Positions 6,880 through 38,136 of a stretch of 41,866 nucleotides of DNA are shown here, one piece after another (position 1 is the stretch's first letter; each line of letters starts with the position of its first letter). The stretch is from NCBI GenBank assembly GCA_027485005.1, contig JAIXRX010000035.1, positions 1 through 41,866 of the forward strand. The letters run 5' to 3'. The DNA comes from Alphaproteobacteria bacterium (GTDB taxonomy: Bacteria > Pseudomonadota > Alphaproteobacteria > Rickettsiales > JAIXRX01). A program made the translations under genes and the position numbers. The notes below the pieces were generated by a model. The model saw nothing but the letters and a program-made list of their open reading frames with translations, was not told where the DNA came from and ran no database searches.

Positions 6880-8154
6880 CTATGTATATTGGCCGCCAGT
6901 TGCAGTGCTACCTGCAGTACTGCCGGGGAAAAATGTTGTGCCCGCGCCATTCACATTAATGACGGCATTAGAGGTGACGGAATGTCGCGAGCCAGTTACT
7001 GCTGAACCGGTAAAGCTTGTAGCGGGGGTATCTAACATTGAGCTCCCTGTAGAGAGAGCAAACGCAGTAACAACTATAGCTGTTGAGACTGTCACCAATA
7101 TTGCAGCAGATTCCGTGATAAATGAACCGCTGCCAGCGCGTAGATGATAACTTGCATTGCCGCTAATCGTGTATGCCGCAGTCCTGATAATCTTACCGCC
7201 ATTAGATGCTAACATATGCTCGCCGGAACAAGCGCCGAAGTTCATACCAGCCCCTACGACTATGCGTCCCCCCTGATCCGCTTGTAGTGCCGGACCAGAT
7301 AGGTTAGAGGCCTTATAGTTCTGGACTTGAATCGAGCAGATTGAAGAAGCGTAAATCACACCAATCGTAGTATTGGCCGCACCGTTGCCATTAACGATTA
7401 TACCGCCGCCAATGAAAGGGTTGGTGATGGAAGCGCCAGCGAAGGTTCCTGAGCCCACATTAATGGTGGCATTGTATCCACCTCCATCATACTTCGAAGT
7501 CAGAACATCAATGGCCTTTTGTACTGTAAGCCATGGTGCGCCCACGCTTCCATCGCCCGTACTATCATTGCCGGTGGTGGTGACATAAAACGTTGTGTTG
7601 GCAGTTAATTGCTTTCGCTCTGTTGGAGATGATCCCAAAGGAGAACCAGTGGCTCGATGATAACCCACGCACTGCCAGTTACCAGCCGAGATGCGGACAA
7701 ATTCAGCCATATCCCCCGCTACCGTCACGATATTAGCGCCAGTTGGCAGAATCAAGGATGTAGCGTTATGGGTCAGCGTCAACACACCAGCAAATTTAAC
7801 CCAAACGTGATCGTATTTTGTGCCGGTTCCAAGAGAAGTGATTGTTGTGGTACCGGTGACTGTTATGAAATCGCTATCGGCAGCTCCGATGTTTGTAGTT
7901 GCAGCGGAGGCAATGTTTGTACCTTGGGCTCTTAGACGGTTGCCAGCAATAATGGCAATTGCGTCACGCAGTTGTGTGAGCGTCTCTTCGTCAGGCGTTA
8001 ATCCTGCAGCAGCAATAACCGCCAGAATCTCGCGCTGCGGGTGTTCAATGGCGCGGGCATCGGGGATTGAACCTTTTATTCCTGCACCAAGATTGCCATT
8101 ACTATATGAGGCATTGGCATCACCTGGTTGGTCAACGGGCTGATAATATTTCAT
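6880..8154 (-). CDS. Tail fibre protein
   Basis: The conserved phage-fibre N-terminus (MKYYQP..., SYSNGNLGAGIKGSIPDARAIEHPQREI) is followed by a Gly/Thr/Ala-rich repetitive beta-type C-terminal part. The gene follows the baseplate genes. Confidence 0.8.
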   Translation of the reverse strand: MKYYQPVDQPGDANASYSNGNLGAGIKGSIPDARAIEHPQREILAVIAAAGLTPDEETLTQLRDAIAIIAGNRLRAQGTNIASAATTNIGAADSDFITVTGTTTITSLGTGTKYDHVWVKFAGVLTLTHNATSLILPTGANIVTVAGDMAEFVRISAGNWQCVGYHRATGSPLGSSPTERKQLTANTTFYVTTTGNDSTGDGSVGAPWLTVQKAIDVLTSKYDGGGYNATINVGSGTFAGASITNPFIGGGIIVNGNGAANTTIGVIYASSICSIQVQNYKASNLSGPALQADQGGRIVVGAGMNFGACSGEHMLASNGGKIIRTAAYTISGNASYHLRAGSGSFITESAAILVTVSTAIVVTAFALSTGSSMLDTPATSFTGSAVTGSRHSVTSNAVINVNGAGTTFFPGSTAGSTATGGQYT

Positions 8155-8759: not shown

Positions 8760-9820
8760 AGCGCCCCAAACGTAATGTTGCCGATAGTCGTGATATCGCC
8801 AAAGTCACGAGTGACATTGGCGCTGGGTGATACCAACGCATGGTCATGCTCACCGATGGCGATGGAGATAACTTCACGGATATGGGAAAGTAGAAGGGTG
8901 CCGCCCGGAATGGACTCGCGGCGAATCAGGTCTTCCAGCTCTGCCTGAATGGCGGTGCGGACGGCCAGCGTGTTTGGAGATATATTGATTTCAAAATCCA
9001 GCGCCACAGGCGTAGGAGCTGCCACAACAGCATCGGCCGTCGCTGGTCGCTGCACATCAATATGGTTTTGCACCAGCTCTACTTCGGGTGCCGATGGAAT
9101 AATGGTGCCTACCTTCTCATCCATGACAAATAGGAGATACACCGACCCGACGCCGAGTTGGCTTGGATAGACCCACGCACGGGTAACGCCCGCGATTTCC
9201 TTGGCCCACATTTCATAGTCGGCCGCATTGCCACCATGAGGCGGGGTTTGCCAGCGCGCTATAATTCGGCCGCGCCATGATGTCTCAGCATCTTCAATAT
9301 CCACCCCGCCGCTTAAACCATCTTCACCAACAATCACCGTGGATTGCACGCCTGGCACAGGTGAGGTAATGGTAAGCGTAGCACCGTCCACTGCATTGCC
9401 CGCTGCGCCAGAAACAACGGCCGTTACATCGCCAGTACCAACACCACCAGAAATAGTCACATCAGCATCCAGTGTATATTCCTGGCCATTGCTATGTCGC
9501 AGTGAGGTGCCAGCCGGAATTGTGCTGCCGTTGGTGCCTGTAAAATCTACCGCGCCGATGGCATGAGCGGCCTCTCGACGATCCACTTTCCAAACTTGGG
9601 CATGAAGTGGCAACCACTCCACATCGCAAGTGGTTGGCAATATCTGACGGGTGACATATTCAATATAGCCTTCCATCTGGTAGGATGCCATGGCGATCAT
9701 GCGTGCCAGCACATCCTCTACGGAAAAGCGCAACGGCGCTTCACCACTGCCAAAGGCAATGGCGATTTCTGCGCGCAGACGCTGGAGTGTTTCTTGCGGT
9801 AAAGAGCGATTATATGGCAT
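8756..9820 (-). CDS. Baseplate J-like protein (Mu gp47)
   Basis: Synteny and length fit. I chose the start at 9820 because AGGAGG lies 6 nt upstream; the track start at 9862 would overlap gp46 by 53 nt. Confidence 0.75.
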   Translation of the reverse strand: MPYNRSLPQETLQRLRAEIAIAFGSGEAPLRFSVEDVLARMIAMASYQMEGYIEYVTRQILPTTCDVEWLPLHAQVWKVDRREAAHAIGAVDFTGTNGSTIPAGTSLRHSNGQEYTLDADVTISGGVGTGDVTAVVSGAAGNAVDGATLTITSPVPGVQSTVIVGEDGLSGGVDIEDAETSWRGRIIARWQTPPHGGNAADYEMWAKEIAGVTRAWVYPSQLGVGSVYLLFVMDEKVGTIIPSAPEVELVQNHIDVQRPATADAVVAAPTPVALDFEINISPNTLAVRTAIQAELEDLIRRESIPGGTLLLSHIREVISIAIGEHDHALVSPSANVTRDFGDITTIGNITFGAL

Positions 9821-13161: not shown

Positions 13162-14831
13162 TATATGCCTCCCATCAGCGCGCCTGTATTGGCACTTTGG
13201 AATTGAATGCGACGATCATTGCTATTGGTTTCAGCAACACGCGCCTTTCCATCTTGGGCGATTTCAATTTTGATAGTGCCGCCTGCGTCAACTTTACTGT
13301 TAGCTGCTCCACGGCGTGAGATCGCACCCAACCCGGCGGATGGTGCAGATGAATTTTGTTCATCACTACCGCCAGCCAGAAGGTTGATTCCTTTGTTAAC
13401 GCCTGTGCTTACCGCACGGCCGATACGGGCGGCACCACTCAGAACTTTGGATATCATTTCAAGGAGCGGCTGCAAGCCAGCTGTAATGTTGGTTACACTA
13501 TCGTTAAAGACGTTTTTAATGCTGTTCCAAAGATCAATAAAGAAGCCTTTTACTGCCTCCCAGTTTTTGATCAGGAGGTAGCCTGCGCCTGCCAAAGCAG
13601 CAATGGCTACCATTACGACGCCAATCGGGTTAGCCAGCAGCACCAGATTGAATGCCTGCATAACCGTATAGCCTGCACGGATCGCAGTAATAAAGTTCAT
13701 GATCGCGGCCACACCCGTCATGCTGACCATAAAGAATTTGATGGCCTTACTAGCAAACATAAATGCCAATGGCATTTTACCCATCACCAGCATCAGCCCT
13801 GCAATGCCTACGATGAATTGTCCAATAACCACCACAATCGGGCCGATAGCAGCCATGATGAGCGCAAACCAGGTGATCGCCGATTTAAGTCCGGGAGGTA
13901 AGCCCATGAAGCCTTTTACTAACCCGCGAATGCTCTCAGTGATTGATTTTATCTTATCGCCAATCTCAAGGTCTTCCCAAAGCTGCGCTCCAAACTCAGA
14001 AAAGATGCCAGTCAGTGAGTTACGCAGTTCTTTGAATACCCCATTGATGCTCTTGCCCTGACGATCCATCATGCCGTGGAAACGCCCACCTTCTTCCGTC
14101 AAGCCCATCATCGCCTTGCGATAGTCTTGGAAGGTGATCTTGCCATTGGCAGCCATGTTCCAGACCTGCTTTTCAGTTTTGCCCAAACTTTTAGCTAGTT
14201 GTTCCACGATGGGGATGTTGGATTTTATCATTGTCTGCAGGTCACCATCGCTGACTTTTCCAGCTTTGCGCAGTGAAATATATTGATCGGTCAGTCCAGC
14301 AAGAGAGGTGCGACTCCCGGCCGCAACTTCCCCCAGCATTGAAAGGCGCGTGCGGATTTCATCCATGCTGTAGCCTGCGGTTTCCAGCTGCTTCACAGTC
14401 GCGCTGAACTCTTCCACGCCAAACTTGTCGATATAGCCTTGGAGTGAAAATACAAACTGGCGGGCTTTGTCAGCGCTACCTGCCAGATGCTCCATCTGTA
14501 TCGTCAGTTCTTCCATCTGCCCGGCCGCACGAATAGATAGCGCGCCAACGCCGATGATTGGTAGTGAGACGCGGGCTGTTAAAAAGCCGCCGATTTCGGC
14601 TGCCTTCTTACCAACCTTATCCATTTTGTCGGCCACCTCATTCCAATTCTTGATGATGGCGCGGGCTGCAGCGGCAGCGCCTATGCGAATACGATCAAGC
14701 TGGGCACGCATGGCACCAACAGCGCCGTTAGCGCTGTTGGTAGCTGTGCGTAGTGAGTTGGTGATATTGCGAACAGGAGCGGTGACCTTATCAACCGCCT
14801 CCAGAATCATCTTCAAGTTCAGATTTTTCAT
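13161..14831 (-). CDS. Tail tape measure protein
   Basis: It is a long, helical, Ala/Gly-rich protein with internal hydrophobic segments and follows the chaperone gene. I prefer the ATG at 14831 to the TTG at 14873. Confidence 0.85.
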   Translation of the reverse strand: MKNLNLKMILEAVDKVTAPVRNITNSLRTATNSANGAVGAMRAQLDRIRIGAAAAARAIIKNWNEVADKMDKVGKKAAEIGGFLTARVSLPIIGVGALSIRAAGQMEELTIQMEHLAGSADKARQFVFSLQGYIDKFGVEEFSATVKQLETAGYSMDEIRTRLSMLGEVAAGSRTSLAGLTDQYISLRKAGKVSDGDLQTMIKSNIPIVEQLAKSLGKTEKQVWNMAANGKITFQDYRKAMMGLTEEGGRFHGMMDRQGKSINGVFKELRNSLTGIFSEFGAQLWEDLEIGDKIKSITESIRGLVKGFMGLPPGLKSAITWFALIMAAIGPIVVVIGQFIVGIAGLMLVMGKMPLAFMFASKAIKFFMVSMTGVAAIMNFITAIRAGYTVMQAFNLVLLANPIGVVMVAIAALAGAGYLLIKNWEAVKGFFIDLWNSIKNVFNDSVTNITAGLQPLLEMISKVLSGAARIGRAVSTGVNKGINLLAGGSDEQNSSAPSAGLGAISRRGAANSKVDAGGTIKIEIAQDGKARVAETNSNDRRIQFQSANTGALMGGI

Positions 14832-20830: not shown

Positions 20831-21943
20831 TTATGCTTGCGACAGTTTCTTTGCGGTCGCCTTAAAGTCTTGAGCAGACACACCCAGCTGGTTTGCGACT
20901 GACATTTGCACGTCATCCAAGCCTGCCTGAACAGCCTCAGCAGAAGCAGTGGCGAGCTTTGTTGCTCCACCCACAACAACAGCGCCCTTGACATATTTTG
21001 CAAAGCCTTGCGGGTCTTTCTGTGCATAATCCAGCGCCCAATCCTTGTTGCCCGGCGTCACTTTGCCTGCAGCAATAGCTGCATCTACAGATGCCGTGGC
21101 CTTGGCAAGGCTGGTTTCACCTTCGACGGCCGCCACACGCTCTTGCAGCGCCTGCACTTCTTCGATAGGCACATATTTGGTTGGATCAGGGCGAGTTGCT
21201 GATGCGGTGGCTTTAGCGCTAGCCTTCATTTTACTGGCCACCTCTTTCTTAATTTCACCAGCAATATATCCATCAACTGCCTCAACGATTGCCTCAGGCG
21301 TTGCTGCATCAGCTGGTGCATCTACTGCTTCTTTTACGGCATCTACCGAGCCTTTAAGCGTCGTTACAGCCGCAATAATTGCATCATCAGATACCGCAGA
21401 TGAACCCTCTGCCGCCGCGAGGCCCAGCAGAGCAATAAGTTGTGCCTTCAAATCTTCCATGTTGTTCTCCGATTGGTTGGTTAAAAAAGTGTTTCGAGCA
21501 GATGCCACGGCTGGCATCTCGAAATTGGGGTCATTGGTGAGACTGATACGATCAATACGCGTCACCTGGCCTTGTTTAGTGTGCCAGAAGGTGGGCGAAA
21601 TGTAGCGGTATTCCTTGTTTTTAAGCTGTTCCAGTGCGGGCGGCGTCCATTCTACCTGCGCCCAGACACTTCCATCTTCTCGCGCTTCCAACGCCTTTAC
21701 CCAGCCTGCCGCACGGCGCTCGACGCCAGGGGCGGCAACGTCGGTGACGTGATCGCGGTCAACAGCCATTTGCACCAACGGACGCAGGGAGGCCGCCACT
21801 ACCGCCTTGGCATCGCTCAGGTGATATGGCCCACGGCCGTCTTTCCCGACAGTGGTGCCAGCCGGAAAAACCTTAATCCACCCATCGGATGCACCGACAG
21901 GCAGAAGAACAGAAGCAATGGTTTTGGTCGTGGAATGTGTCAT
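20831..21943 (-). CDS. Head maturation protease / scaffold (Mu gpI-like)
   Basis: The N-terminal Mu-I features (FPAGTTVGKDGRGPYHL, ISPTF, SLTNDPNF) are followed by an Ala-rich helical scaffold-like C-terminus. Confidence 0.85.
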   Translation of the reverse strand: MTHSTTKTIASVLLPVGASDGWIKVFPAGTTVGKDGRGPYHLSDAKAVVAASLRPLVQMAVDRDHVTDVAAPGVERRAAGWVKALEAREDGSVWAQVEWTPPALEQLKNKEYRYISPTFWHTKQGQVTRIDRISLTNDPNFEMPAVASARNTFLTNQSENNMEDLKAQLIALLGLAAAEGSSAVSDDAIIAAVTTLKGSVDAVKEAVDAPADAATPEAIVEAVDGYIAGEIKKEVASKMKASAKATASATRPDPTKYVPIEEVQALQERVAAVEGETSLAKATASVDAAIAAGKVTPGNKDWALDYAQKDPQGFAKYVKGAVVVGGATKLATASAEAVQAGLDDVQMSVANQLGVSAQDFKATAKKLSQA

Positions 21944-21978
21944 GCCGCCTAATTTAGGGGGGCTTAAGACACTTGGGC

Positions 21979-21998
21979 ATTGTAGCTATAACTACAAT
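21979..21998 (-). promoter_or_regulatory. Late-promoter activator dyad ATTGTAG-N6-CTACAAT (P_I candidate)
   Basis: The 7-bp arms are perfect, and the dyad is followed by GCC and then exactly 32 nt to the gpI ATG. The same element with the same geometry occurs at 29092-29111. Confidence 0.6.
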
Positions 21999-22219
21999 GG
22001 ATAGAGATGCGGCAGGATTCGGTTTTCACGCGCACGCGGCATGGGCGTACTTACCCGCACATACTTAACCCCGCAATAAGGCCATTTAATGCGATTCAAT
22101 TTTAGCCATCTAACCCTTTTGCACCCCCATATAGCTACACACCCTAAGATGGCGCTAAAAGTGCCCTTAAAATCGCTTTGCCCTAAAAGTTGATTTTGGG
22201 GTCGAATCAGGCTATATTG

Positions 22220-22266
22220 AAAAACAGATGACTGACTGGCTGACACCCCAACCTCCAAGGTCATCT
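22220..22266 (-). terminator. Candidate terminator after gene F
   Basis: On the minus strand, AGATGAC (22266-22260) pairs with GTCATCT (22232-22226) and is followed by GTTTTTC. The loop is 27 nt, so the terminator is weak. Confidence 0.35.
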
Positions 22267-22301
22267 CAATGCAGTCAGGTGGGATGTGTCGTGACTGCTT
22301 T

Positions 22302-23558
22302 TTATTCCTCCTCTGTCCGTCGATACACCATAGAGCCTTGGCGCTGCTTCTGGAGGTATCCTTTTTTGGTTTGAAATGTGGTGACGCCAGCCCAGCCATC
22401 TTTGCCCGTTTCAAACGCCACCAGCGCTTGCTGCTTGTCGTCACCAACCTGCAATCTGGTCAGATAGCGGCGGCGTAAAACTTTACGGCCGTCACTTAGC
22501 ATTTCCCAATATTCCCATATCTCATCCGGTTTCTTTAGAGCGGCCGCCAGGAGTAAAAGATATTTATGGCGATTGCTCTTTTGCACCTTCCAATTACCCT
22601 GGGCATTTTTGAAAAGGGAATCAGAGATCACCAGATTCTCACCAGCGACATCCGTAAATATCTTGCTCTTGCCGATCTCCGCATCAAACTCTTTCAGGAA
22701 GCGATTGACATACTCAGGGTCACTCAGTCCATCTGGCAGGATCATGTTGGTGGCGGCTGGGCGCATACGGGGCATAGGCACCTTTGCGGCTGGCCCTTGG
22801 TATGGAACGCCAAGCGGCGCATCGAGCGGTGGTGGCGTCAGTGCCTTCATACGAGCGCGGCCTGCGTTGTAATTAAAACCGGGAGTTATACCTTGCGGCA
22901 CAGTCATGGTTTCGCCCGTGCGCGAATTAAAATAGCGGCGAGGCATCCCCACAGGGGAGTGCACACTGACGCTTAAGCCTAATCGCTTCACATCATCTTC
23001 GGTCAATTGTTGCACCCAGCAGCGACAGCCCCAACCATTTGGCGGATAGTGTTCATCCCAGAACGGATGATCGACAGGCAAGACAGTATTGTGCCAGGCG
23101 CGGTGTTCGGGTCGGGTGGCACCATCCATCACAGCAACATAGCGTAGATATGGAAACGCTTTCTTTGTGCGCTGAATTCCTTCCCAGCGTCCAGCTGCAT
23201 AGCTGGTACGCATGTTGGTTTCAAAGATAGTTTTGAGACGGCGCGGACTGCCGAGCTGGACTTCCTTTTCCTTGCCCGTCTGCGGATCAATCATGTTTTT
23301 ACGGCCCCACCATCCTTTTTCCTGTAAGATGGGAGTGAGCTTCTTTTGGAAATCCGCCAGCGTTTCGCCGTTAGCGATAGCATCATCCATCGCAGCCCGG
23401 ATATCCTGCAGCACATCCTGCTTGGTGGCCTTAGCTACGGTGAATGAATAGGCATGAACTTCGCCCATCATCTCCCGATGATCAAAGGTTTCCTGGTAGC
23501 CTTTCTTGCGGAAGAAATCGATAGCCTGCTCTGGTGGGAGTGCGCGTAGCTCGGCCAT
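22302..23558 (-). CDS. Head morphogenesis protein (Mu gpF / SPP1 gp7 family)
   Basis: The MuF signature is present (RPEHRAWHNTVLPVDHPFWDEHYPPNGWGCRCWV). Confidence 0.9.
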   Translation of the reverse strand: MAELRALPPEQAIDFFRKKGYQETFDHREMMGEVHAYSFTVAKATKQDVLQDIRAAMDDAIANGETLADFQKKLTPILQEKGWWGRKNMIDPQTGKEKEVQLGSPRRLKTIFETNMRTSYAAGRWEGIQRTKKAFPYLRYVAVMDGATRPEHRAWHNTVLPVDHPFWDEHYPPNGWGCRCWVQQLTEDDVKRLGLSVSVHSPVGMPRRYFNSRTGETMTVPQGITPGFNYNAGRARMKALTPPPLDAPLGVPYQGPAAKVPMPRMRPAATNMILPDGLSDPEYVNRFLKEFDAEIGKSKIFTDVAGENLVISDSLFKNAQGNWKVQKSNRHKYLLLLAAALKKPDEIWEYWEMLSDGRKVLRRRYLTRLQVGDDKQQALVAFETGKDGWAGVTTFQTKKGYLQKQRQGSMVYRRTEEE

Positions 23559-28042: not shown

Positions 28043-28490
28043 GGCGTTCCTCCTGTAAGATTTTTTGTAATGCTTTTACTTTTTCAGGGCAGCGCTTGAG
28101 GGCGGTGCGGACGGCGAGATAATCCGGTTCAGATTCTCGCTTAAGTCTGGCTCGTGCTCCATCAGCCACGCCGGAATTTCCGGCAGTGGCGGACATTGGT
28201 AACGGACAGCTGGCGCTGACGAGCAACTCGACAGAGCCATCAGTAAGACCACGGGCAATATGAGATGTTTCGGATTCGGCATGGCGGATATCCTTCAAGC
28301 TGGCTGTTTCGATTTCATGAATGGATCCGCCCAGGGCAGCGGTATCTTTATGCGCGCTTGAAACGGCAGTCGCATCTTGAGCGCTACGCTCTGCATCGGA
28401 CGCCTTGCGCTCCAATCCCTGCCAGTAAGTGGCGACACCAAAACCAAAAACAAAACCCAAGGCAAAGGCGATTAAATATCGTGCAAGCAT
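28023..28490 (-). CDS. i-spanin (Rz-like)
   Basis: It has an N-terminal TM anchor (YLIAFALGFVFGFGVATYW) and a helical periplasmic domain. It follows the endolysin gene and contains an embedded lipoprotein ORF. Confidence 0.75.
   Translation of the reverse strand: MLARYLIAFALGFVFGFGVATYWQGLERKASDAERSAQDATAVSSAHKDTAALGGSIHEIETASLKDIRHAESETSHIARGLTDGSVELLVSASCPLPMSATAGNSGVADGARARLKRESEPDYLAVRTALKRCPEKVKALQKILQEERRVRNSE
28076..28282 (-). CDS. o-spanin (Rz1-like lipoprotein), fully embedded in the i-spanin gene in another frame
   Basis: It has a signal peptide with lipobox LMALSS|C, and the mature part is short and Pro-rich (CPPLPEIPAWL...SPSAPPSS). Confidence 0.75.
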   Translation of the reverse strand: MPNPKHLILPVVLLMALSSCSSAPAVRYQCPPLPEIPAWLMEHEPDLSENLNRIISPSAPPSSAALKK

Positions 28491-29056
28491 ATGCGAACCT
28501 CCACTTTGCGGCGGTTTATCAGCCCTTTGCTAATTCTTTTGTTGCGGGCGGGCACAGCACATTGACCAGTGGTATCGCCTTTTCCCTTGGGTGCTACCTC
28601 GCATATCCATCGGTTCATCTGCATGCAGGCAGCTTCATATTGCCCCTGGTTAAGCAGGCGAATAAGGGTGGAGGTTTGCATTGCGCCTATGCCCACGTTG
28701 TACGCCCAACTGATAATGGCAGCCTTCATCGTTTCAGGGATTGGCACTTTGACAGCGCGCTCAACCGCTCGCTTAAATACACCCAAATCACCATTAAGCA
28801 GCTTGTCGCATTCTGGCTGTGTCAGCGTCTGACCTGGACGAGCGGTGGCGGTATGCCCATAGCAGATTGTATCAATGCTGGCCGTGTCTTTGTAGGTGGA
28901 GAGACTCAAACCCTCCAGCGTCATCAGCATAGCCAGTGCTATACCTGCAGCGCTACCTCCTGAAAGCATGGCCACAGACAGCGATACTTTCCCCGCGCAG
29001 CAATGAAAGAGCTGACGGCATAATTGGAGAAATTTAAAAGCATTTACATGTGGCAT
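28472..29056 (-). CDS. Endolysin, T4-lysozyme-like (GH24) with SAR-type N-terminal domain
   Basis: The catalytic context LEGLSLSTYKDTASIDTICYGHT (E-D-T) is preceded by a weakly hydrophobic Gly/Ala-rich segment (LSGGSAAGIALAMLM). Confidence 0.85.
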   Translation of the reverse strand: MPHVNAFKFLQLCRQLFHCCAGKVSLSVAMLSGGSAAGIALAMLMTLEGLSLSTYKDTASIDTICYGHTATARPGQTLTQPECDKLLNGDLGVFKRAVERAVKVPIPETMKAAIISWAYNVGIGAMQTSTLIRLLNQGQYEAACMQMNRWICEVAPKGKGDTTGQCAVPARNKRISKGLINRRKVEVRICLHDI

Positions 29057-29091
29057 AAACGCGATGTTACGCGCTCACGCGAAGGCATGGC

Positions 29092-29111
29092 ATTGTAGCG
29101 GTAGCTACAAT
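29092..29111 (-). promoter_or_regulatory. Late-promoter activator dyad ATTGTAG-N6-CTACAAT (P_lys candidate)
   Basis: The 7-bp arms are perfect, and the dyad is followed by GCC and then exactly 32 nt to the endolysin ATG. It lies in the 81-bp gap right after the Mor-like gene. Confidence 0.6.
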
Positions 29112-29137: not shown

Positions 29138-29512
29138 CTAAAACAGATCGTATTGATCTTTAGCAGCGGAGGCTTTTATGACCCGATAAACCACGCTACG
29201 GTCGGTGCCGATGATACGAGCAATCCGGTTAATCGGCACCCCATCATTATACATACGCAGAATGCGGGCATTGCGGCTGGGCCGCACTGGCACGGTCATC
29301 ACCATACCACCCCATATATCAGACAAGCGCTTTGCCGCCTCTAGGCCAATGCAATACGCAATTGGGCCGCTCTCTGTTGCCCGCAGCGGGATAGAAATAG
29401 CTGCCCCACCAAAATCGACTGACAGCTGCTCGAGCGCATCGTCACCGATCAACATACGCAGTCCATCGGTGGTTGGATTATCTGGTAAATCAAGGTGATC
29501 GTAATCAGCCAT
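29138..29512 (-). CDS. Mor/C-family transcriptional activator
   Basis: The C-terminal HTH (RNARILRMYNDGVPINRIARIIGTDRSVVYRVIK) is characteristic of Mu Mor/C. I chose the start at 29512, 1 nt after the preceding stop. Confidence 0.85.
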   Translation of the reverse strand: MADYDHLDLPDNPTTDGLRMLIGDDALEQLSVDFGGAAISIPLRATESGPIAYCIGLEAAKRLSDIWGGMVMTVPVRPSRNARILRMYNDGVPINRIARIIGTDRSVVYRVIKASAAKDQYDLF

Positions 29513-37215: not shown

Positions 37216-37300
37216 CATAATGCAGACAATAATTATTATATTACTGTGCGTTACATAACTTGAACGCTATCGTGTAACTTGAACGCCAAACGACCCAAAA

Positions 37301-37598: not shown

Positions 37599-37626
37599 TT
37601 GACCTTTGCTAGGCCTTTCATACAAT
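37599..37626 (+). promoter_or_regulatory. Sigma70-type host promoter TTGACC-N16-TACAAT
   Basis: It has near-consensus hexamers and lies about 30 nt upstream of the ATG at 37657. Confidence 0.55.
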
Positions 37627-37656
37627 GCCACCAAATCTACCAATAGTGAGTGTTGT

Positions 37657-38136
37657 ATGAGCGAAAATGCATCTAAAACAGAAAGCTTTGATCCCGAAAA
37701 ATATCGCCCTTCTCCAGAAAGTGTGAAATCAGAACGCCAAACATATAGTCTTGTTTGGGGAGCTATGGCGGCGATGATATCAGGCATGGTGGGTTATATG
37801 GCTGCCGAATGGCAAAAATGTGGATCACAAACAAAAGGCTGGATCACCGGTATAAGTGCTGTTGCGGGCGGATTGATAGGAGGATATATCCTCGGCAAAA
37901 AGACCGAAACTGAGGGTGAGGTTATTTATAAAATGGCGCAAGAGGCTGCCAAAAGACCTGATCCAGAGAAGGCTATGCAAGACGGTCTTGCCAAACGTGA
38001 AAAAGACAAAGAAATGCTTATGGCTATGGCGATGATAGATCAGGCCAATCAATCAGCGAATGCTAACGCTAATTATTTTCAAACATACGCCAATCCAGCG
38101 GCGGGCGGCGGGTATGGTGGTATGGGGCGCTTCTAG
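37657..38136 (+). CDS. Small membrane protein (2 Gly-rich TM segments), unknown function
   Basis: It has two TM segments (SLVWGAMAAMISGMVGYMAA and WITGISAVAGGLIGGYILG). I prefer the ATG at 37657 to the track start at 37606. Confidence 0.6.
   Translation: MSENASKTESFDPEKYRPSPESVKSERQTYSLVWGAMAAMISGMVGYMAAEWQKCGSQTKGWITGISAVAGGLIGGYILGKKTETEGEVIYKMAQEAAKRPDPEKAMQDGLAKREKDKEMLMAMAMIDQANQSANANANYFQTYANPAAGGGYGGMGRF

What the first reader, a model, noticed from the sequence alone, without database searches (positions are those of the whole stretch)
21941..21998. Identical 32-nt spacing from dyad to ATG at both late promoters predicts leaderless (or 1-2 nt leader) late mRNAs
In both copies exactly 32 nt separate the last C of CTACAATGCC from the A of the ATG (21943 for gpI, 29056 for the endolysin). 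The dyad centre is therefore at -45.5 relative to the start codon.

Both spacers carry a -10-like hexamer 7 nt before the ATG: TAAATT (21956-21951) and TAACAT (29069-29064). Mor/C sites in Mu are centred near -43.5 relative to the transcription start, which would put +1 at or within about 2 nt of the ATG. Neither gene has a convincing Shine-Dalgarno sequence at the usual distance.

Two independent late operons starting with leaderless messages would be an unusual feature for a Mu-like phage. It would also fix the real endolysin start, which includes the 30-aa extension before the SAR segment.
Basis: inference. Interest (0 to 1): 0.65.

Follow-up and report, generated by a model that had tools for sequence, protein, structure and literature searches.

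The report
Leaderless late promoters in Mu-like prophage
Two late promoters of a Mu-like prophage place the start codons of the head protease and the endolysin exactly where transcription should begin, so both messages probably have no leader, and the same layout recurs in many related phages.

Summary
Two perfect dyads, ATTGTAG-N6-CTACAAT+GCC, lie at 21976-21998 and 29089-29111 on the minus strand. Each is followed by 19 nt, a TAnnnT hexamer, 7 nt and the ATG of gpI or of the endolysin.

Comparative evidence supports the leaderless reading.
- In five further distinct relatives (39-54% gpI identity) the same motif sits 32 or 31 nt before the ATG. T20, A21 and T25 are the only conserved spacer bases.
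- Relatives with other upstream motifs (L366, L367, L131) still keep a hexamer, 6 nt, then ATG at both promoters.
- Of 137 distinct gpI upstream regions, 60 have YAnnnT 6-8 nt before the ATG. Only 11% have a Shine-Dalgarno sequence, against 71-92% for five internal genes (gpT, portal, sheath, tube, Z).
- Phage Mu itself has leaders of about 20-23 nt.

The layout is therefore not rare. It is common in Mu-like phages of Alpha-, Beta- and Deltaproteobacteria and Pseudomonas. I found no description of it in the literature I could search.

No transcription start was mapped, so the mechanism remains an inference (confidence about 0.7). I class it as a new variant of a known kind, Mor/C-type late promoters.

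The parts
29138..29512 (-). Gene for the only Mor/C-like activator (124 aa). It lies after GemA and 81 nt upstream of the endolysin ATG. It is the presumed binder of the two dyads.
   Evidence: PHROG 836 'late transcriptional activator' E 1.2e-11. Pfam Mor scores 24.2 bits against a cut-off of 24.9, and there is a C-terminal HTH_7. The 124-aa product is P0237. Gene order matches Mu. There is no BLAST similarity to Mu Mor or C. The structure test was inconclusive.
29089..29111 (-). Plys dyad ATTGTAG-CTACCG-CTACAAT followed by the conserved GCC. Proposed activator site.
   Evidence: The same motif sits at the same place in L001, L002 and L127.
29064..29069 (-). -10 hexamer TAACAT of Plys, 19 nt after GCC and 7 nt before the ATG.
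   Evidence: TAACCT is at the same position in L001 and L002. No -35 hexamer is present.
29054..29056 (-). Endolysin ATG, the predicted 5' end of the lysis and packaging message (T at -1, A at +1).
   Evidence: It is the first in-frame ATG of the open frame in the window, L001 and L002. No SD is present.
28472..29053 (-). Endolysin coding sequence. It has a 30-residue N-terminal extension, a Gly/Ala-rich membrane segment of SAR type and a lysozyme domain.
   Evidence: Pfam Phage_lysozyme E 4.9e-35 over residues 47-185. The extension stays in frame in L001 and L002.
21976..21998 (-). PI dyad ATTGTAG-TTATAG-CTACAAT followed by the conserved GCC. Proposed activator site.
   Evidence: It is conserved in L001, L002, L003, L365, L127 and L286. 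Position 5 of the two arms changes together (G/C or A/T).
21951..21956 (-). -10 hexamer TAAATT of PI, 19 nt after GCC and 7 nt before the ATG.
   Evidence: T, A and the final T are invariant in five aligned phages while the rest of the spacer varies.
21941..21943 (-). gpI ATG, the predicted 5' end of the head and tail message (C at -1, A at +1).
   Evidence: The N-terminus M-T/K-x7-10-LP is shared by homologues. No SD is conserved.
20831..21940 (-). gpI (head protease/scaffold) coding sequence.
   Evidence: Pfam Mu-like_Pro E 1.8e-65 and PHROG 328 E 4.5e-75.

Best explanation
These are the two late promoters of a Mu-like prophage. The host is an uncultured alphaproteobacterium.

Proposed mechanism:
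1. A dimer of the single Mor/C-like activator (29138-29512) binds the dyad TGTAR-N6-YTACA with its flanking ATGCC.
2. The bound activator recruits the host sigma-70 RNA polymerase to a promoter that has a TAnnnT -10 element but no -35 element.
3. Transcription starts at the A of the ATG, or at most 1-2 nt upstream of it. That A lies 7 nt after the hexamer and is preceded by a pyrimidine.
4. The gpI message and the endolysin message therefore begin with AUG and are translated by the leaderless route, without a Shine-Dalgarno sequence.

A likely consequence (inferred): an early transcript that reads through from the activator gene into the endolysin gene would carry the same AUG internally. There it has no SD and would be translated poorly. 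Lysis and head proteins would then be made only from transcripts that start at the late promoters.

What is shown: the sequence anatomy, its conservation, and its statistics across relatives. What is inferred: activator binding, the position of the transcription start, and the mode of translation.
For: Anatomy. There are two perfect dyads, each followed by 32 nt and an ATG, with a hexamer 7 nt before the ATG.

Mu geometry. The C site is centred at -43.5, and Mu late promoters have a -10 but no -35 (PMC2582627). No canonical -35/-10 pair and no terminator was found on the gene strand at either site.

Close relatives.
- PI in L001, L002, L003 and L365 has TACAATGCC + 32 nt + ATG.
- L127 and L286 have 31 nt.
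- Plys in L001 and L002 has 32 nt, and in L127 31 nt.
- So both promoters of one phage change together.
- T20, A21 and T25 are invariant in an otherwise diverged spacer.

Other motif types. L366 (GGGTGGGTAA) and L367 (ATGTGTAnCAnCTGCGTCACT) keep equal spacing at both promoters, each with a hexamer, 6 nt and ATG. In L131 the hexamer and the ATG shift together by 1 nt.

Survey. Of 137 distinct gpI upstream regions, 60 have YAnnnT at a gap of 6, 7 or 8 nt (29, 22 and 9). At most 1 is seen at almost every other gap. A strict SD is present in 11%, against 71-92% for gpT, portal, sheath, tube and Z. At 60% identity, 25 of 52 clusters carry the hexamer.

Window genes. Most have a clear SD, but these two do not.

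Published criteria. TANNNT about 12 nt upstream of the start marks leaderless genes (PMC3160421). AUG, zero leader length and low unfolding energy favour leaderless translation (PMC8459731). The unfolding energies here are 4.1 and 0.2 kcal/mol.

Endolysin start. In L001 there is no ATG, GTG or TTG in frame between the 5' ATG and the middle of the membrane segment.
Against: No transcription start, N-terminus or protein-DNA contact was measured. Every step after the anatomy is inferred.

With the A of the ATG as +1, the dyad centre is at -45.5 (-44.5 in the 31-nt relatives). That is 1-2 bp from Mu's -43.5.

The right arm contains TACAAT, itself a good -10 hexamer. A start about 7 nt after it would give a leader of about 25 nt.

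gpI has AGG at -7 to -5.

The activator's place in the Mor/C family rests only on profile matches and gene order. Pfam Mor falls just below its cut-off, BLAST to Mu Mor and C finds nothing, and the structure search was inconclusive.

The Plys spacer (TCGCG..GCGCG) is more conserved than a simple spacer needs to be. It may have a second function.

In L366-L368 the ATG on the lysis side opens only a 29-32-codon ORF. The long endolysin form is therefore not universal.

Sequences in the survey are related to one another, so the counts are not independent events.
Confidence: 0.7

Rival explanations
1. The messages are leadered. Transcription starts upstream, either about 7 nt after the TACAAT in the right arm of the dyad (leader about 25 nt) or by read-through from the preceding operon. 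The ATGs are then used by an SD-independent route that still needs a leader. The fixed 32-nt spacing would reflect shared descent or a conserved RNA or DNA element.
For: TACAAT is a near-consensus -10. It is used as one in a canonical TTGACC-N16-TACAAT promoter next to the prophage at 37600-37627. No terminator separates the activator gene from the endolysin gene, so read-through RNA probably exists. The Plys spacer is unusually conserved.
Against: No -35 lies 16-18 nt upstream of either TACAAT.

In L127 Plys the hexamer reads TACAAG. This loses the critical final T of a -10 but extends the palindrome, so that base follows dyad symmetry rather than -10 rules.

The invariant T20, A21 and T25 would be unexplained.

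Phages with unrelated upstream motifs keep the hexamer + 6-7 nt + ATG layout, and 44% of gpI genes have it.

A GC-rich, SD-less leader of about 25 nt would be a poor site for translation initiation.
Confidence: 0.15
2. The promoters are as described, but the proteins start further downstream: Met31 for the endolysin, or a later codon for gpI. The 5' ATG would then be incidental, or would open a short leader peptide that happens to be fused in frame here.
For: MLSGGSAAGIALAMLM from Met31 would be a typical SAR N-terminus. L002 also has an internal ATG just before its membrane segment. In L366-L368 the 5' ATG opens a separate 29-32-codon ORF ahead of the first lysis gene, with an ATGA overlap in L367.
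Against: Met31 has no SD either.

L001 has no alternative in-frame start before the membrane segment.

The frame stays open from the 5' ATG in all three SAR-endolysin phages, although their extensions differ in length by whole codons.

For gpI the N-terminal M-T/K-x-LP segment is conserved at the protein level from this ATG.
Confidence: 0.1
3. The equal spacing and the hexamers are coincidence.
For: Only two sites in one genome were described. TAnnnT alone is a weak pattern.
Against: A perfect 14-position dyad is expected about 1e-4 times in 42 kb, and it occurs twice. Among about 120 chance hits to the motif, only 1 had ATG at +32. The layout recurs in independent relatives and is strongly enriched by position.
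Confidence: 0.02

Closest known systems
C-dependent late promoters Plys and PI of Escherichia phage Mu
   Same: Same genes (endolysin, gpI) and same gene order. Both have a dyad-symmetric site for a small HTH activator overlapping the -35 region, a recognisable -10 and no -35. The bases just downstream of the dyad matter in both (PMC2582627). The distance from dyad centre to the first base of the -10 is 32.5 nt here and about 31.5 nt in Mu.
   Different: Mu transcripts carry leaders of about 20-23 nt, by S1 mapping as used in the oligonucleotides of PMC4461284. Mu has two activators (Mor, then C) and a middle stage, while this phage has one. The recognition sequence differs (TGTAR-N6-YTACA). 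No dyad was found for a third (P) or fourth (mom) late promoter.
Lambda cI mRNA from PRM (from my own knowledge, not tested here)
   Same: A phage promoter with a weak -35 depends on a dimeric HTH activator bound next to RNA polymerase. Its transcript begins with the AUG of the first gene.
   Different: It serves a lysogeny maintenance gene in E. coli, not late lytic operons. The activator and site are unrelated.
[quoted passage not shown]
   Same: The diagnostic sequence features are the same: a -10-like TANNNT 12-13 nt before the start, AUG, no SD and an unstructured 5' end.
   Different: Those are host genes with constitutive promoters. Here the feature is tied to activator-dependent phage late promoters and to one gene family (gpI) across several bacterial classes.
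gpI genes of cultured Mu-like phages: Pseudomonas Spike and D3112, Ralstonia RS138, Rhodovulum RS1
   Same: The same hexamer-gap-ATG layout is present: CACCAT-GGCGGC-ATG, CACGAT-GGCGGC-ATG and CAGTGT-CGCTGGC-ATG.
   Different: gpI identity to the window is only 26-36%. Their upstream activator motifs were not examined, and I found no mapped starts for them.

Membership tests
Mor/C-dependent late promoter (phage Mu type) | A Mor/C-family activator is encoded by the phage. | tested here: inconclusive
   In favour: PHROG 836 'late transcriptional activator' at E 1.2e-11 over nearly the full length, the position after GemA, and the Pfam Mor tag on relative P0238. Against: Pfam Mor scores 24.2 bits against a cut-off of 24.9. 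BLAST to Mu Mor and C finds nothing. A profile search against PDB reaches Mu C (9l0x) only at E 0.39. The AF2 model has pLDDT 67, and Foldseek matches only the HTH.
Mor/C-dependent late promoter (phage Mu type) | An imperfect or perfect dyad overlaps the -35 region at a fixed distance upstream of the -10 (centre at -43.5 in Mu). | tested here: met
   The dyad centre is 32.5 nt upstream of the first base of TAnnnT at both sites, against about 31.5 nt in Mu Plys. The position relative to the true +1 could not be measured.
Mor/C-dependent late promoter (phage Mu type) | A recognisable -10 hexamer is present and no -35 hexamer. | tested here: met
   TAAATT and TAACAT are present. No consensus -35/-10 pair was found on the gene strand. 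T, A and the final T are invariant in relatives.
Mor/C-dependent late promoter (phage Mu type) | Transcription depends on the activator and occurs late. | not testable with these tools
   This needs expression data or in vitro transcription.
Leaderless mRNA | The transcription start coincides with the first base of the start codon. | not testable with these tools
   It is only predicted. The A lies 7 nt (6 nt in some relatives) after the -10 and is preceded by C or T.
Leaderless mRNA | A TANNNT signal lies about 12 nt upstream of the translation start (criterion of PMC3160421). | tested here: met
   The first T of the hexamer is at -13 at both sites. The position is strongly enriched across 137 gpI genes.
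Leaderless mRNA | The start codon is AUG and there is no Shine-Dalgarno sequence. | tested here: met
   Both starts are ATG. Neither has GGAG, GAGG or AGGA at -17 to -4, whereas most other genes of the prophage do.
Leaderless mRNA | The 5' end is accessible (low unfolding energy). | tested here: met
   The unfolding energy of the first 16 nt is 4.1 kcal/mol for gpI and 0.2 kcal/mol for the endolysin. This is within the range reported for natural leaderless mRNAs, median 5.0 (PMC8459731). It does not differ from other genes of the window, so the test is weak.
SAR endolysin | An N-terminal weakly hydrophobic Gly/Ala-rich membrane segment precedes a lysozyme domain. | tested here: inconclusive
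   The lysozyme domain is clear. The segment MLSGGSAAGIALAMLMTLEG was judged by eye only. The 30 residues in front of it are atypical for the family.

The most novel reading that the evidence does not exclude
Starting the late messages exactly at the AUG is a conserved design of a large branch of transposable (Mu-like) phages, including Pseudomonas D3112/DMS3-like and Ralstonia phages. It couples translation to the choice of promoter. The head protease/scaffold, and in some lineages the endolysin or a short upstream ORF, can be translated only from transcripts initiated at the activator-dependent late promoter. Read-through early RNA carries the same AUG internally without an SD and is not translated. 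This would give a second, translational lock on lysis and assembly timing.
Probability: 0.3. Interest if true: 0.75.

Novelty: new variant of a known kind. Interest (0 to 1): 0.6.

Why it matters
If confirmed, it has four consequences.

1. It fixes the true starts of gpI and the endolysin in this phage family. Gene callers currently disagree: in the alignment some gpI homologues are truncated and others are extended upstream.

2. It shows that Mor/C-type late promoters can produce leaderless messages, which phage Mu itself does not do.

3. It points to a simple way for a phage to keep lysis and head genes untranslated on read-through early transcripts.

4. The same hexamer-gap-ATG layout occurs in cultured Pseudomonas, Ralstonia and Rhodovulum phages. 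The idea can therefore be tested directly with existing strains.

Tried and rejected
- Near-identity DNA searches of the region against the phage and E. coli collections found nothing.
- A single-protein scan of genome contigs found no relative. The alignment-based scan did.
- A scan of viral contigs for ATTGTA-N8-TACAATGCC gave only chance hits, which I used as a control.
- TACAAT as the real -10 was rejected. There is no -35, and L127 has TACAAG, which keeps the palindrome.
- A third or fourth late promoter was not found. No other site combines the motif, the hexamer and an ATG. The hit ATACAATGCC at 7468-7477 lies inside a gene and has no dyad. The hit at 37620-37629 is the -10 of an ordinary promoter.
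- Rfam search of the F-I gap gave no match.
- The structure route to Mor/C membership failed. The model had low confidence and only the HTH matched.
- The protein search for the activator returned only 3 sequences.
- Literature searches for leaderless late mRNAs in Mu-like phages found no report.

Full report
**What is in the window**

The minus strand carries a Mu-like prophage. The gene order is transposase A and B, DUF3164, GemA, one Mor/C-like gene (29138-29512), an endolysin (28472-29056), an Rz spanin, terminase, portal, gpF (22302-23558), gpI protease/scaffold (20831-21943), the major head protein gpT, and tail genes.

No phage or E. coli record is close at the DNA level. The nearest gpI homologue is 57% identical.

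The flanking host genes are mutS, plsX, fabH and purQ. The MutS fragment is at most 61% identical to anything in the database. The named hits are MAGs labelled Alphaproteobacteria, Rickettsiales, Stellaceae or Pseudomonadota. The host is therefore an uncultured, deep-branching alphaproteobacterium.

**Checking the observation**

- CTACAATGCC ends at 21976 and at 29089.
- 32 nt follow in each case.
- The ATGs begin at 21943 and 29056.
- TAAATT (21956-21951) and TAACAT (29069-29064) each lie 7 nt before the ATG.
- The dyad centre is 45.5 nt from the A of the ATG.

ATTGTAG-N6-CTACAAT occurs exactly twice without mismatch, and the next best sites have three mismatches. About 120 chance hits to ATTGTA-N8-TACAATGCC in viral contigs served as a control. 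Only one had ATG at +32 and only one had TAnnnT at spacer positions 20-25.

**Close relatives**

Syntenic prophages were recovered from assemblies and MAGs:
- L001;
- L002 (the same contig as L124);
- L003 (the same contig as L125);
- L365, L127 and L286.

Their gpI identity to the window is 39-54%.

Upstream of gpI, L001, L002, L003 and L365 have (Y/R)TACAATGCC, 32 nt, then ATG. L127 and L286 have 31 nt. Upstream of the endolysin, L001 and L002 have 32 nt, and the first gene after the activator in L127 has 31 nt. Both promoters of one phage therefore change length together.

The PI spacer has diverged almost completely. Within it only T20, A21 and T25 are invariant, together with the C just before the ATG. 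This is the signature of a -10 hexamer. Three relatives also have TGn in front of it, which is an extended -10.

Position 5 of the two dyad arms changes symmetrically, and does so in both promoters of a phage. It is TGTAG...CTACA in the window and L003, and TGTAA...TTACA in L001 and L127. This fits a site read by a dimer that co-evolves with it.

**More distant relatives**

These use other upstream motifs but keep the layout.
- L366 shares GGGTGGGTAA at both promoters, and 45 nt follow before each ATG.
- L367 shares ATGTGTAnCAnCTGCGTCACT, and 34 nt follow in each.
- In both phages a hexamer (CAGTGT and TAGTAT; CATGGT and TAAAAT) is followed by 6 nt and then ATG.
- In Micavibrio aeruginosavorus (L131) the spacings are 39 and 38 nt, and the hexamer moves with the ATG.

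When the two promoters of each phage are aligned on the ATG, the shared motif lines up at shift 0 in six phages and at shift 1 in L131. The ATG therefore tracks the -10 element. This is expected if the start codon is the transcription start.

**Survey of gpI genes**

I collected 240 loci encoding gpI relatives. In each I took the ATG nearest to the aligned N-terminus.

Among 137 distinct upstream regions, YAnnnT occurs 29, 22 and 9 times at gaps of 6, 7 and 8 nt. At nearly every other gap from 0 to 14 it occurs at most once. Strict TAnnnT occurs 10, 15 and 2 times at the same three gaps.

A strict Shine-Dalgarno core is present in 11% of gpI genes. With the same procedure it is present in 71-92% of gpT, portal, sheath, tube and Z genes. 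At 60% identity, 25 of 52 clusters carry the hexamer and 8 carry an SD. In the hexamer set the base before the ATG is C or T in 48 of 60 cases, and the 6 nt before the ATG are 81% G+C.

Within the window, most genes have AAGGAG or GGAGG at -14 to -9. The gpI and endolysin genes have none.

**Comparison with Mu and with cultured phages**

In Mu, C binds a 16-bp dyad centred at -43.5, and the late promoters have a -10 but no -35 (PMC2582627). The promoter oligonucleotides of PMC4461284 carry 20 nt past the S1-mapped starts. That places the Mu lys and I starts about 20-23 nt upstream of their ATGs. Mu late messages are therefore leadered.

Mannheimia and Vibrio Mu-like phages also have ordinary SD sequences. 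By contrast, these cultured phages show the leaderless-type layout:
- Pseudomonas Spike and D3112: CACCAT-GGCGGC-ATG;
- Ralstonia RS138 and YO088: CACGAT-GGCGGC-ATG;
- Rhodovulum RS1: CAGTGT-CGCTGGC-ATG.

Literature searches found no report of leaderless late messages in Mu-like phages.

**Agreement with what is known about leaderless genes**

[quoted passage not shown] In Caulobacter, leaderless translation needs a 5' AUG, loses about 2-fold per added nucleotide, and needs an unstructured 5' end (PMC8459731).

Here the first T of the hexamer is at -13, both codons are AUG, and the unfolding energies are 4.1 and 0.2 kcal/mol. That last test does not separate these genes from others in the window.

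From general knowledge of start-site selection, RNA polymerase prefers a purine 7-8 nt after the -10 with a pyrimidine before it. That favours the A of the ATG, in the contexts C-A and T-A.

**The endolysin start**

In the window, L001 and L002 the frame is open from the 5' ATG, and this is the first in-frame ATG. The extensions differ in length by whole codons and share a loose pattern: aromatic and basic residues, then G-K/R before the membrane segment.

L001 has no in-frame ATG, GTG or TTG between the 5' ATG and the middle of the membrane segment. The long form must therefore be made there.

In the window Met31 could be a second start, but it has no SD. In L366-L368 the 5' ATG instead opens a 29-32-codon ORF that contains a terminator-like hairpin and ends at or near the next gene. 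One possible history is that a short leaderless ORF became fused to the endolysin in the window's lineage.

**The activator**

The 124-aa protein matches PHROG 836 (late transcriptional activator, E 1.2e-11) and has a C-terminal HTH. Pfam Mor falls just under its cut-off.

BLAST against Mu Mor and C finds nothing. A profile search against PDB reaches Mu C only at E 0.39. A shallow-alignment AF2 model (pLDDT 67) matched only HTH domains.

Membership in the Mor/C family therefore rests on profile matches and gene order. Binding to the dyad is inferred.

**Rivals**

- A start after the TACAAT of the right arm is unlikely. There is no -35, L127 has TACAAG (which keeps the palindrome), and the conserved TAnnnT would have no role.
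- Read-through RNA from the activator gene probably exists, because no terminator intervenes. On such RNA the AUG is internal and has no SD. This suggests that the leaderless design restricts translation to transcripts made from the late promoter. That is my inference and is untested.

**Verdict**

The leaderless interpretation is supported by several independent lines of comparative evidence but is not proven. The feature is widespread rather than peculiar to this phage, and I found no description of it in the literature I could search.

Noticed in passing
window 21999-22301 (minus strand); L001 9612-9918, L002 9652-9945, L003 2890-3196, L365 3860-4166: The gap of about 350 nt between gpF and gpI is conserved in length in five phages. 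Right after the gpF stop it holds two hairpins kept by compensatory changes, roughly at 22299-22270 and 22266-22225. It also has invariant blocks such as AAAATTGAA. There is no Rfam match. In Mu the corresponding G-I gap holds the strong gyrase site. The element could be a 3' stabiliser or terminator, a gyrase-site analogue, or an unknown RNA.
   Followed up: partly
L366 about 2363-2460, L367 about 2369-2458, L368 about 2190-2290: In three relatives the ATG on the lysis side, placed 6 nt after the -10, opens only a 29-32-codon ORF. This ORF contains an intrinsic-terminator-like hairpin with a T run and ends next to the first lysis gene (ATGA overlap in L367). It looks like a leaderless leader peptide with a possible attenuation or coupling role.
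   Followed up: no
L364 (phage Mu NC_000929) 9540-9560: Just upstream of Mu gene I there is a six-codon ORF, ATGATGAGCAGCAGGACATGA, whose stop overlaps the I start codon (ATGA). By the oligonucleotide design of PMC4461284 it begins only about 6 nt after the mapped PI start. The annotated I start has AGGA only 1 nt away.
   Followed up: no
window 13482-13497 (minus strand): A third perfect TGTAA-N6-TTACA dyad lies inside the tape-measure gene. AATGAT follows at the same 19-nt spacing, but there is no ATGCC flank and no ATG. It is not conserved in L001 or L002, so it is probably chance. It could be a weak internal promoter for the baseplate genes.
   Followed up: partly
window 37600-37627 (plus strand): A canonical sigma-70 promoter, TTGACC-N16-TACAAT, sits in front of the ORF that starts at 37659. 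It explains the one-mismatch hit ATACAATGCC and shows that the host uses E. coli-like promoters.
   Followed up: yes
window about 37250-37290: There are two direct copies of TAACTTGAACGC about 20 nt apart, beyond the repressor-side end of the prophage. They are likely transposase-binding repeats of the left end.
   Followed up: no
L372 (Pseudomonas phage D3112, AY394005) 220-360: The annotated start of D3112 orf33 (protease/scaffold) is an internal Met. The CACCAT-GGCGGC-ATG start seen in phage Spike is present upstream but is out of frame by one base (GCCGCTGCTC against GCCGCTTGCTC in Spike). This may be a sequencing error in the older record.
   Followed up: no
L035 5986-6008 and 6100-6122 (IMG/VR contig 3300010885_027357): An unrelated viral contig carries two copies, 114 nt apart, of a near-perfect 24-nt palindrome GCATTGTAAGC-AA-GCTTACAATGC. 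It contains the same TTGTAA/TTACAA core.
   Followed up: no
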